Below are positions 55,701 to 58,700 of a stretch of 64,000 bases of DNA, one piece after another. The position numbers are program-made. Numbering within the stretch: position 1 is the stretch's first letter; each line of letters starts with the position of its first letter. The stretch comes from Podarcis pityusensis. Taxonomy: Eukaryota. The DNA is taken from assembly GCA_964106645.2 (NCBI GenBank), contig OZ067042.1. One strand, 5' to 3'.

Positions 55701-58700
55701 GCATGGAACTTTTCAGGAAATGTGAGGCAGTTGCATAGGTGGGTCCTCAAACCCTGACTTTATCCAGGCTCAGATTCTTTGCCTCCTCATGGGGCTGGTT
55801 CCTCAAGAGATAGATAGCAGAATGGCCCTTGATCAGTAACTGCTTGTCATGATGGAACAGTAGTGGACTCTCCTTCCTTGGAGATTTTAAAGCAAAGGTT
55901 GGATGGCCATCTGTCATGGGTGCTTTAGCTGAGATTCCTGCATTGCAGGGGGTTGGACTAGATGACCCTCAGAGTCCCTTCCAACTCCCAATATTCTTTT
56001 GAGTCTATGATGGCTGTGTACTTCATCCAGTATTGAAAGCAGAATGCCTCTGAATGCCAGTTTTTGGGTAACACAAGTGGGGGAGTGTTACTGTGCTCAT
56101 CTACTGCATGTGGGCTCCCCATGGGCATCTGGTTGGCCTCTAAGAACAGTTTGCTGGATGAGATGCATCTTTGATCTCATCCAGCAGGGTGGTTCTCATA
56201 TTCTCAATTTGCCGTGTGGGCAGCTAATTTGTATGTGCTCTTGTTCCTCATCAGATTTTGATGTTGTCAGGATCCATTCCCAGGGGCTCCCAAAAGGAAA
56301 GAAAGTGGCTTCTGTTAGTTGGGCAGTCTCTTTGCTTGATCCTAATTATGCACAGAAAAACCACAGGGTTTTTTCCCTTGAGAGCCAGTGTGGTGTAGTG
56401 GTTAAGAGCGGTAGTCACGTAATCTGGGGAACCGGGTTCGCGTCTCCGCTCCTCCACATGCAGCTGCTGGGTGACCTTGGGCCAGTCACACTTCTTTGAA
56501 GTCTCTCAGCCCCACTCACCTCACAGATTGTTTGTTGTGGGGGAGGAAGGGAAAGGAGATTGTTAGCCGCTTTGAGACTCCTGAAGGGGAGTGATAAAGT
56601 GGGATATCAAATCCAAACTCTTCTTCTTCTTCCTTGGTGTTGAAGGACTCTTTGTAATCATGTATGAACTGAAAACCAGTTGGTAATAATTTGTGCCCTA
56701 TAATTACAATGAGAAACTGTAAGCATAGTGTAATCCAGATATCTTGAGTGGAGAAAAGTTAAATACTTTTATAGAGAATTATAACAGACAGGTTTTGTTA
56801 CTGTTATGCTTTACTGTGAACCACTTGGAGCACAATTTTAAGAGAAAACTTACATTGGTTTGTAAATTTATTTGGTTTGCAAATAAAGCTACAAAGGGGT
56901 TTATCCAATGGTTGTATGTATGGAGGGCAGCTTGCCAACAAATTTTGCTATTTTTCTCTTCCCTCTCTGTGGCCTCTGCAAAGGTTTGGGGAGCCCTCTG
57001 AGGAACTCAGGGGCTCCAGAGCAGGAGAAGAGAAAAAGACAATAGTTGCTTGAGCTGCTTGCTACTTATGCACTCTTTGGGTGTAACCCAGGGATTGTGA
57101 CAAAATATAGAATTGCCTTTTTTCTTCGTACCTAAATGATTTTGTAACATTTCCATGTCTCAGTTTTCAGATATGTTGCTCTACACCAGCAAAGGAGTCA
57201 CGGGTACCAATCAATTCAAGATTCACGGTCATCTCCCTCTGCACGGGATGCTGGTGAGTGATACATCACACAGCAATCAAACATCAAAATAATAAAATGT
57301 GTTTCATGTTAACCTCGGCTTCCTCTTTATACTGAACTTTTAAGGGACTCTTGCGAAACGCGCAATTCTGGTTACTGTAGTTTTTCTCCAGTCATTAGTA
57401 GACACAGATTTCTGGGTTAGATTTAAGTAGTCAAAAGAACAAGCACTGCCAGTTTTTTGGCATTGGAGTAGCTGGGAAGACGAGAAAACTCTTGATTGTG
57501 CTTTTGCTATTTTCAAGGCTAGCTGGATGTGCTAATTGGTGTTGCTTCCACACCAAAATGCTACATTCCCTCCCACTCCTTAATGGAACTTTTTTTTATG
57601 TGTCTGTGTTTGATTTTCAGCTGATAGTCCTGGATCCTCCGGTGAGTAATAAGCCAGTGACTACTATGCTTAGCAGCTTGCTGAAATGACAGTGCAATTG
57701 TAGGTGATAGTTTTCCCATTAGAAACAAAGTAGAAACGAAATACTGTTAATGTAGCTAGTTGCTGTTGTCACACCATTTATTTTAGTGTAGATGTGTGTG
57801 CTGTTGCTCACTGAGTGATGAAGAAATTTCCTTTGTTGTAGGTGGAAGAGAGCGAAAACGAATGGTCTGTCCCTCACTGCTTTACCATTTATTCAGCTCA
57901 AAAAACCATAGTAGTGGCAGCAAGGTAAGGATTTTCTCAGTGCTCAATTGTGAAAAAGAGTGTTAAAGCACTGGTAAAATAGGCATCTTTCAGTGTGTGT
58001 ATATGCCACTATACCCCAGGCTACGCAATGTGAGAGACCACACTCTCCCTGAGTCATTATGCAGTCATCTGTTGAGGCAAAACCTGATTTCCCCATGGAG
58101 TAGTGCTCCAAGCTTACATTAAAGTGCAATAGTATGTTGCTTCCTCTCATCTTTATGAGACTTCAGATTTCAGGAGGAATAGAAAAAGATTCAAACTGTG
58201 TTGTGGTTTTATCAAACCTGAATTTGTGTGGAATTTAAAATTGTTGAGGCAAGCTTCTGCAGTTGCCAGAATGGTAACATAGACTGCAAATTTTGTTATT
58301 TCAGTGGGAATTTATGGAAACATGAAATTGCTCTAAGTATGGGTCAAGCAGTGCTTTTCTTGAACCATAAATCACAAACAGCAGCCGAGCTCTGAAAACG
58401 TGCTTAGCCATCATTCCTGTCTCTATTTTTCAGCACTCGTCTGGAAATGGGGAAGTGGATGGAAGATCTAAATATGGCAATTGAAATGGCCAAGAAATTC
58501 ACTGAGAAATCAGAGATGTTTCTAGAAAACTCAGTGTGCAATCGTTCTAACAGTGAGTAGCTTTCATGTCACTTGTGATTAGTGATTCTTGGTTAGTTGT
58601 GTGCTCTTCAGGCTTCTGAGATGGAAAATGGTATAGATTACGCAGCCTTCAGTCTTTTTCACTAAGTAACATTCCATACCCTCTCCGATGCTCCAGATAT

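What the first reader, a model, noticed from the sequence alone, without database searches (positions are those of the whole stretch)
57560..57700. 21-nt in-frame microexon inserting LIVLDPP into PH1
Seen: CCTTAAT branch-like motif, long U/UG tract, TTTTCAG|, 21 nt, then consensus |GTGAGT, frame-preserving between GML and VEES. The peptide is absent from the canonical FARP2 sequence as I recall it. Established: 3-27-nt frame-preserving microexons are mostly tissue-regulated (often neural) and remodel interaction domains. The proximal UGC typical of SRRM4 targets is not evident, so another regulator is possible. Inference: it alters the PH1 surface or DH-PH-PH packing.
Basis: partly seen in the sequence, partly recalled or inferred. 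Interest (0 to 1): 0.7.

Follow-up and report, generated by a model that had tools for sequence, protein, structure and literature searches.

The report
Likely real 21-nt FARP2 microexon
A 21-base, frame-keeping mini-exon sits in a short intron of the FARP2 gene of a bird- or reptile-like genome and would add seven amino acids to the first PH domain; its splice signals look real, but its use in mRNA could not be checked here.

Summary
Window 57621-57641 (+) is 21 nt (LIVLDPP), preceded by TTTTCAG and followed by GTGAGT. It is open and in phase 0, between exons 57164-57253 and 57842-57924. Those two exons are contiguous in the solved mouse FARP2 and human FARP1 chains, with no insert.

Evidence that it is a real exon:
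- It is the only intronic AG..GT pair of 3-51 nt on either strand whose two sites both score at least as well as the candidate's. Random sequence gives 0.08 in-frame open pairs per 64 kb.
- Its acceptor follows a 98-nt AG-free zone, among the 10 longest of 4258 gaps.
- The 200-nt downstream intron holds 10 UAG, matched by 0.16% of windows and 0.4% of shuffles.
- The ASCOT paper lists mouse Farp2 primers for 'novel exon validation' that bracket this same intron.

No UGC lies within 60 nt of the acceptor, so the signature is Musashi-like, not SRRM4-like.

Untested: inclusion in mRNA, conservation, and any effect on PH1.

Verdict: probably a genuine regulated microexon, a new member of a known kind. 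I do not take the contig for human.

The parts
57164..57253 (+). Upstream constitutive FARP2 exon (90 nt, FSDMLLYTSKGVTGTNQFKIHGHLPLHGML); donor CTG|GTGAGT
   Evidence: Matches 4gzu_A 250-279 (22 of 30 identical) and 4h6y_A 248-276. Phase-checked against the previous exon 55449-55517. Donor PWM 6.53.
57522..57620 (+). AG-exclusion zone and 3' splice region. Holds CTAAT (57532-57536), the C-rich CCCTCCC (57567-57573), CCTTAAT (57578-57584), the U/UG tract (57590-57618) and the acceptor TTTTCAG
   Evidence: 98 nt without AG upstream of the acceptor AG. This is among the 10 longest of 4258 AG-to-AG gaps. The 13 other exon acceptors have 18-53 nt. Acceptor PWM 2.89. No TGC within 60 nt of the acceptor.
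57621..57641 (+). Candidate cassette microexon, 21 nt, phase 0-0, encoding LIVLDPP
   Evidence: Sequence and translation. It is the best AG..GT pair in its intron and the only intronic pair in the window with both site scores this high.
57642..57647 (+). 5' splice site CCG|GTGAGT
   Evidence: PWM 7.07, 8th of all GT on the + strand. Five of the 7 higher-scoring donors belong to FARP2 exons that I identified. The next best GT in this intron scores 1.0.
57642..57841 (+). Downstream intron (200 nt) with a cluster of 10 UAG, 5 of them GUAG
   Evidence: 10 TAG against a window mean of 2.77 (sd 1.73). 0.16% of 200-nt windows reach 10. Dinucleotide shuffles of the same 200 nt give 5.36 (sd 1.58), and 0.4% reach 10. 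The 11 other exons have 0-5 TAG in their first 200 downstream nt.
57842..57924 (+). Downstream constitutive FARP2 exon (83 nt, VEESENEWSVPHCFTIYSAQKTIVVAA + AG)
   Evidence: Matches 4gzu_A 280-306 (25 of 27 identical) and 4h6y_A 278-304. Donor AAG|GTAAGG scores 7.45.

Best explanation
This is a genuine, alternatively spliced, frame-preserving 21-nt cassette microexon of the FARP2 orthologue in a bird- or reptile-like genome.

When skipped, the 588-nt intron 57254-57841 is removed whole, giving the canonical ...LPLHGML|VEESENEW... When included, two short introns of 367 and 200 nt are removed and LIVLDPP is inserted at the beta4-beta5 turn or the start of beta5 of PH1.

Inclusion is most likely regulated. 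The acceptor is only middling and follows a long AG-free zone, which allows a distant branch point. The donor is near-consensus. The downstream intron carries a dense UAG cluster of the kind bound by Musashi proteins to promote inclusion. It has no proximal UGC of the kind used by SRRM4.

It is probably the orthologue of the unannotated mouse Farp2 exon that the ASCOT study validated by RT-PCR across this same intron.

Shown: the anatomy, frame, site scores, motif statistics and primer placement. Inferred: that the exon is used, by which regulator and in which cell type, and any effect on the protein.
For: Anatomy and frame. The flanking exons are contiguous in solved FARP2 and FARP1 chains.

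Splice-site statistics:
- The donor is the 8th strongest GT on the + strand. Five of the 7 stronger ones belong to FARP2 exons.
- It is the only intronic pair of 3-51 nt on either strand with both scores at least the candidate's.
- Simulated sequence gives 0.08 in-frame open pairs per 64 kb.

Other cis features:
- The AG-exclusion zone is 98 nt, among the 10 longest of 4258 gaps. Other exons have 18-53 nt.
- There are 10 UAG in the 200-nt downstream intron. 0.16% of windows and 0.4% of local dinucleotide shuffles reach that.

Literature, PMC6952364 (ASCOT):
- Section 11 says UAG clusters are enriched in the proximal intron at the 5' splice site of MSI1-activated exons.
- The forward primer reads VTGASH, which lies in the mouse equivalent of the upstream exon.
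- The reverse primer's complement reads STRLEK, which lies at the junction of the two exons after the intron.
- The amplicon therefore spans this intron.

The intron is not a repeat within the window.
Against: - No expression data, orthologue alignment or annotation could be consulted, so inclusion and conservation are untested.
- By summed site score the candidate is only 12th of 12,425 short pairs.
- The acceptor score is the fourth lowest of 12.
- The PWM frequencies were recalled, not fitted.
- I looked for the UAG and AG-free features after the fact. About 13 motifs were tried.
- The PTBP1-type CU motifs that accompany most rod exons in ASCOT are absent: 0 TCTT and 0 CTCT in the 100 nt upstream.
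- The size, position and cell type of the mouse Farp2 exon are in supplements I could not open. That it lies in this intron, and is homologous, is my inference from the primer sequences.
- LIVL is hydrophobic. As I recall it, that is unlike the mostly polar, surface-exposed residues of known microexons.
- No main-text paper links FARP2 or FARP1 with 'microexon' or holds the peptide.
Confidence: 0.62

Rival explanations
1. Chance pseudo-exon. A strong GTGAGT happens to lie 21 nt downstream of a usable AG in a short intron, but the spliceosome never pairs them, and the intron is always removed whole.
For: - Simulated random 64-kb sequences have at least one pair this good in 40% of cases, and an in-frame open one in 7%.
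- Two other donors at least as strong, at 43208 and 22872, belong to no FARP2 exon that I could recognise.
- 11 pairs have a higher summed score.
- The acceptor is mediocre.
- Being in frame and open is weak evidence: about 1 in 4 by chance for 21 nt, by my arithmetic.
Against: - It needs three more coincidences: a 98-nt AG-free zone (0.23% of gaps), a UAG cluster (0.16-0.4%), and a published novel mouse Farp2 exon bracketed by primers across the same intron.
- No equal pair occurs elsewhere in introns on either strand.
Confidence: 0.2
2. The strong donor at 57641 is real but pairs with an upstream AG (exon start 57518 or 57523). That gives a 124- or 119-nt out-of-frame exon with stops, a poison or cryptic exon that lowers FARP2 output and makes no new protein.
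For: - The acceptor at 57518 scores 2.6, nearly the same as the microexon's 2.9. The pair 57518-57641 has the second-best summed score in the intron (9.7 against 10.0) and contains stops.
- The size of the ASCOT mouse exon is unknown to me.
Against: - The 98-nt AG-free zone, the pyrimidine/UG tract and two branch-like motifs (CTAAT, TTAAT) all lie downstream of 57518 and directly upstream of 57621. That is the layout expected if 57620 is the AG in use.
- The ASCOT methods mention a special analyser for products differing by under 30 bp. This shows only that some validated exons were tiny.
Confidence: 0.07
3. The 21-nt exon is constitutive in this lineage, and the seven residues are simply part of this species' normal FARP2.
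For: The donor is as strong as those of constitutive exons. Both flanking introns are short, at 367 and 200 nt.
Against: - The mouse FARP2 and human FARP1 proteins that were crystallised lack it.
- The acceptor is weaker than most in the gene.
- The long AG-exclusion zone and the UAG cluster are features of regulated exons. The link for AG-exclusion zones is recalled; the link for UAG clusters comes from ASCOT section 11.
Confidence: 0.08

Closest known systems
Unannotated mouse Farp2 exon validated by RT-PCR in ASCOT (Ling et al. 2020, PMC6952364)
   Same: Same gene and, judging by the primers, the same intron. The forward primer lies in the VTGASH exon. The reverse primer lies on the STRLEK junction after the next exon. 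ASCOT describes such exons as specific to a cell type and mostly absent from GENCODE M20.
   Different: A different species. The size, sequence and cell type of the mouse exon are only in supplements that were closed, so homology with LIVLDPP is not shown.
Musashi (MSI1)-activated, photoreceptor-enriched exons
   Same: A dense UAG cluster in the proximal intron downstream of the 5' splice site. ASCOT section 11 reports this as the enriched motif for such exons.
   Different: The PTBP1-type CU-rich motifs that ASCOT reports beside most shared rod exons are missing upstream. Retinal inclusion was not tested.
SRRM4/SRRM3-dependent neural microexons
   Same: Size of 27 nt or less, frame-preserving, and inserted in a folded interaction domain of a signalling protein.
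   Different: No UGC between the pyrimidine tract and the AG; the nearest is 62 nt upstream. That this motif is required is recalled, not read here. The residues are hydrophobic and proline-rich, not charged.
Exons with distant branch points and long AG-exclusion zones
   Same: A 98-nt AG-free stretch upstream of the acceptor, with a CTAAT 85 nt upstream and a TTAAT 37 nt upstream.
   Different: The class is recalled from the literature (Gooding et al. 2006, not seen here). No branch point was mapped.

Membership tests
FARP2 (FERM-RhoGEF-PH-PH protein) | FERM domain upstream | tested here: met
   Exon 33421-33582 hits Pfam FERM_C at E 5.9e-9. It also hits FARP2 FERM chains 6d21_A (97.7 bits) and 6d2k_A (71.1), against 52.1 for FARP1 6d2q_A.
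FARP2 (FERM-RhoGEF-PH-PH protein) | Dbl-homology (RhoGEF) domain followed by two PH domains | tested here: met
   Exon 50733-50969 hits RhoGEF at E 3.2e-16. Exons 62738-62845 and 63834-63983 hit the PH profile at E 9.2e-5 and 0.021, both below Pfam's cut-off. The PH1 exons match 4gzu_A 250-342. The architecture is as described in PMC6041286.
FARP2 (FERM-RhoGEF-PH-PH protein) | Closer to FARP2 than to the paralogue FARP1 | tested here: met
   FARP2 scores higher in 4 of 6 exons: 41.4 vs 25.4, 129-131 vs 92.6, 87.1 vs 75, and 97.7 vs 52.1 bits. FARP1 is slightly higher in 2 of 6: 38.4 vs 34.3 and 21 vs 19.7. No phylogeny was made.
Vertebrate cassette microexon (3-27 nt) | Length of 27 nt or less, a multiple of 3, open in the host phase, with AG and GT borders | tested here: met
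   21 nt, phase 0-0, no stop, TTTTCAG| and |GTGAGT.
Vertebrate cassette microexon (3-27 nt) | Inclusion in mature mRNA in at least one tissue | not testable with these tools
   No transcript data were available. The only indirect evidence is the mouse primer pair in PMC6952364.
Vertebrate cassette microexon (3-27 nt) | Conservation of the exon and its flanking intron across species | not testable with these tools
   The protein and contig collections that hold vertebrates were closed or absent. No orthologue was seen.
SRRM4-dependent neural microexon | UGC-containing enhancer close upstream of the 3' splice site | tested here: not met
   TGC lies 62, 78, 91 nt and further upstream, with none closer. 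The defining distance is recalled.
Musashi-activated exon | Cluster of UAG in the proximal downstream intron | tested here: met
   10 UAG in 200 nt, 5 of them in the first 100 nt (1.6% of 100-nt windows reach 5). 0.16% of 200-nt windows and 0.4% of shuffles reach 10. The motif is as stated in PMC6952364 section 11.
Musashi-activated exon | Accompanying PTBP1 motifs, and inclusion that depends on MSI1 | tested here: inconclusive
   0 TCTT and 0 CTCT in the 100 nt upstream. Dependence on MSI1 cannot be tested here.

The most novel reading that the evidence does not exclude
An amniote-conserved FARP2 isoform, restricted to one cell type (possibly photoreceptors, driven by Musashi), in which seven residues (LIVLDPP) replace the start of strand beta5 of PH1 and lengthen the following loop. 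This would shift the packing that keeps the DH-PH-PH module autoinhibited. Splicing would then switch on, or lock off, a GEF that is otherwise inactive or a 'pseudo-GEF'.
Probability: 0.1. Interest if true: 0.65.

Novelty: new member of a known kind. Interest (0 to 1): 0.4.

Why it matters
PMC6041286 reports that FARP1 and FARP2 crystallise in an autoinhibited DH-PH-PH form. It also says it is unclear whether they act as GEFs at all unless that form is released.

A regulated insertion inside PH1 would be a natural and easily tested handle on that question. One could express the module with and without the seven residues and assay exchange activity, membrane binding and plexin signalling.

It would also add a folded-domain microexon with a Musashi-like, non-SRRM4 cis-signature. 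If it is only an unused decoy, nothing follows.

Tried and rejected
I went exon by exon instead.
- The FARP2 structure paper (He et al. 2013) is not held under its DOI or PMC id. What I say about autoinhibition comes from a passage of PMC6041286.
- Rfam gave no match in the whole window at gathering score, and none in 57000-58300 at E up to 1.
- An RNA fold of 57560-57720 was no more stable than shuffles (z +1.23; 186 of 200 shuffles fold at least as well). A structured RNA element is rejected.
- Self-BLAST of the intron against the window gave only matches of 31 nt or less with E of 0.03 or more. There is no sign of origin from a repeat within the window.
- On the - strand there are only short stop-to-stop ORFs of 54-63 aa, with no other evidence of a gene.
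- RBFOX-type GCATG: 0 in the downstream intron.
- Paper searches that found nothing on the point:
  - FARP2 + microexon: 0 papers.
  - FARP1 + microexon: 0.
  - LIVLDPP: 0.
  - A six-term search that did not force FARP2 was of no use.
  - Farp2 + splicing: 100 papers, 40 listed, only ASCOT relevant.
  - Farp2 + Musashi: 2.
  - Farp2 + photoreceptor + exon: 9.
  - Farp1 + alternative splicing + exon: 35 papers, 15 listed, none about PH1.
  - The Farp2 mentions in PMC7145592 and PMC12608036 concern other things.
- Pfam found no family for the four short PH1 exons taken singly.
- Not attempted: joining exons into a spliced protein, folding with and without the insert, any orthologue search, and reading the ASCOT supplements.

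Full report
WHAT IS THERE

Window 57621-57641 on the + strand reads CTGATAGTCCTGGATCCTCCG, which translates to LIVLDPP.
- It is preceded by TTTTCAG, ending at 57620, and followed by GTGAGT at 57642-57647.
- Upstream lie a U/UG-rich tract (57590-57618), CCTTAAT (57578-57584), a C-rich CCCTCCC (57567-57573) and a CTAAT (57532-57536).
- The window has no N.

THE HOST GENE

I searched the spliced model exon by exon.
- The upstream exon is 57164-57253 (FSDMLLYTSKGVTGTNQFKIHGHLPLHGML). It matches mouse FARP2 chain 4gzu_A 250-279 (22 of 30 identical) and human FARP1 4h6y_A 248-276.
- Its true acceptor is at 57163, not the TTTTCAG at 57170. Only that choice fits the phase of the preceding exon 55449-55517.
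- The downstream exon is 57842-57924 (VEESENEWSVPHCFTIYSAQKTIVVAA). It matches 4gzu_A 280-306 (25 of 27 identical) and 4h6y_A 278-304.
- The two exons are therefore contiguous in both solved proteins, and neither protein has the seven residues.
- Further exons:
  - 58434-58552 matches 4gzu_A 308-342.
  - 50733-50969 is RhoGEF (Pfam E 3.2e-16) and scores 129-131 bits to FARP2 against 92.6 to FARP1.
  - 63834-63983 is in PH2 and scores 87.1 against 75 bits.
  - 33421-33582 is FERM_C and scores 97.7 and 71.1 bits to FARP2 against 52.1 to FARP1.
- FARP2 scores higher in 4 of the 6 exons compared. FARP1 is slightly higher in the other 2. I read the gene as a FARP2 orthologue.
- The host intron is phase 0, so inclusion of the 21 nt keeps the frame.

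WHICH ORGANISM

I do not take the contig for human.
- The gene is compact. The GC-rich start lies near 4 kb and PH2 near 63 kb.
- The exons differ from the mouse protein at 8 of 30 and 2 of 27 positions.
- An intron holds an open fragment at 55833-55999 that looks like the C-terminal tail of a CR1 LINE of birds and reptiles. That resemblance is recalled, not tested.

IS IT MORE THAN CHANCE?

I used a crude position-weight score whose frequencies I recalled from textbook consensus tables.
- The donor CCG|GTGAGT scores 7.07. The gene's other donors score 0.44 to 7.6.
- The acceptor scores 2.89. The others score -1.5 to 7.65, so it is the fourth lowest of 12.
- Only 8 GT on the + strand reach the donor's score. 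Five belong to FARP2 exons (47674, 50304, 57924, 62845, 63985), one is the candidate, and two (43208, 22872) belong to nothing I could recognise.
- Pairs of AG and GT 3-51 nt apart with both scores at least the candidate's number 3 on the + strand and 0 on the - strand. Two of the 3 lie inside real exons.
- In 150 Markov-1 simulations of 64 kb, such pairs occur 0.5 times per window. Pairs that are also in frame and open occur 0.08 times, and 7% of windows have one.
- By summed score the candidate is 12th of 12,425 pairs.
- Within its own intron, 57641 is the only strong donor (7.1; next best 1.0), and the 21-nt pair is the best. A 124-nt out-of-frame alternative, 57518-57641, follows closely.

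Taken alone, the splice sites are suggestive and no more.

TWO FURTHER FEATURES, FOUND AFTER THE FACT

- The acceptor AG follows 98 nt without any AG. This is among the 10 longest of 4258 AG-to-AG gaps in the window. The 13 other exon acceptors have 18-53 nt. Long AG-exclusion zones go with distant branch points and regulated exons, as I recall.
- The 200-nt downstream intron holds 10 UAG, 5 of them GUAG.
  - The window mean is 2.77 (sd 1.73), and 0.16% of 200-nt windows reach 10.
  - The other 11 exons have 0-5.
  - Dinucleotide shuffles of the same 200 nt give 5.36 (sd 1.58), and 0.4% reach 10.
- About 13 motifs were tried, so these figures need that discount.
- There is no GCATG and no TCTT or CTCT nearby. 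The nearest TGC is 62 nt upstream of the acceptor.

LITERATURE

No held paper has FARP2 or FARP1 together with 'microexon', and none holds the peptide.

The ASCOT paper (PMC6952364) bears on the question. I read its abstract and outline, sections 6, 7 and 11, and passages of section 18. I did not see its supplements.
[quoted passage not shown] - The forward primer translates to VTGASH. This occurs in the mouse chain within the equivalent of the upstream exon. Its best window match is at 57195 (14 of 20).
- The complement of the reverse primer translates to STRLEK. TRLEK begins the mouse equivalent of exon 58434-58552. It matches the window at 58431 (17 of 21).
- If exon borders are conserved, that primer sits on the junction of the two exons after our intron. 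The only intron fully inside the amplicon is then the one that holds the candidate. This reading is my inference.
- The same paper states that UAG clusters are enriched in the proximal intron at the 5' splice site of exons activated by MSI1, and that most shared rod-specific exons are flanked by PTBP1 and MSI1 motifs.

MECHANISM

- Most likely (0.62) this is a real, regulated cassette microexon. Its inclusion depends on an intronic enhancer downstream, of Musashi type, and not on the SRRM4 UGC element. It is probably orthologous to the mouse exon.
- The Musashi or photoreceptor part is weaker, perhaps one in three, because the PTBP1-type motifs are missing and no expression was seen.
- Rivals: an unused decoy (0.2), the same donor used with an upstream AG to give a 124-nt poison exon (0.07), and constitutive use in this lineage (0.08).

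EFFECT ON THE PROTEIN

This is inference only.
- PH2 exon 63834-63983 aligns to Pfam PH profile positions 44-90.
- Its LPLLGYTVS is weakly aligned by HMMER (below significance) with the FARP1 counterpart (LPLYGMTIEES) of PH1's LPLHGMLVEES.
- That places the junction GML|VEE at the beta4-beta5 turn or the first residues of beta5.
- This end of the PH sandwich lies away from the canonical lipid-binding loops. This is general knowledge of the fold, recalled.
- The insert begins L-I-V-L. It could continue the strand in place of V-E-E-S and push DPP-VEESENEW into a longer loop.
- Whether that touches the autoinhibitory DH-PH-PH packing described for FARP1 and FARP2 (PMC6041286, passage) is unknown.

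WHAT STAYED UNCHECKED

- Inclusion in mRNA.
- Conservation in orthologues and in FARP1.
- The ASCOT supplements.
- The FARP2 structure paper, which is not held.

VERDICT

This is a probable genuine microexon, a new member of a known kind, of moderate interest.

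Noticed in passing
window 57164-57171: The upstream exon's real acceptor is ...tctcag|TTTTCAG. A second AG 7 nt further in (exon start 57171) looks like a better acceptor by eye, but it would shift the frame. The phase check and the PDB alignment (FSD...) show that the first AG is the one that fits.
   Followed up: yes
window 60624-61000: A GC-rich 59-bp tandem repeat, 6.4 copies, 95% matches, in the intron between the PH2 exons. It produces long open frames in all six frames.
   Followed up: partly
window 55833-55999: Open fragments (…SLEILKQRLDGHLSWVL; …GVGLDDPQSPFQLPIFF) that resemble the C-terminal end of a CR1-type LINE ORF2 as I recall it. 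Pfam found nothing for 55833-55925. I used it only as a hint that the genome is bird- or reptile-like.
   Followed up: partly
window 43203-43214 and 22794-22872: Two near-perfect donors in the sense strand, CAG|GTAAGT at 43208 and CAG|GTAAGC at 22872, belong to no recognised FARP2 exon. 22794-22872 would be a 79-nt out-of-frame exon.
   Followed up: no
window 45067-45188: Another long AG-free zone (110 nt) ends in ...ttgcttcctgcag|AAG. It is followed after 10 nt by GAG|GTGGGG. This pair ranks 7th by summed site score. At 10 nt it would not keep the frame.
   Followed up: no
window 3400-4400: A GC-rich stretch with long overlapping open frames on both strands, upstream of all recognised FARP2 exons. 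It is probably the CpG-island promoter and first exon.
   Followed up: no
window 36121-37341: One very large open exon within a 421-aa stop-to-stop frame, with the best acceptor score in the gene (10.0). It corresponds to the non-conserved linker between FERM and DH described in PMC6041286.
   Followed up: partly
window 52708-52742 and 55155-55179: Microsatellites (AAT)11.7 and (TG)12.5 in introns.
   Followed up: no
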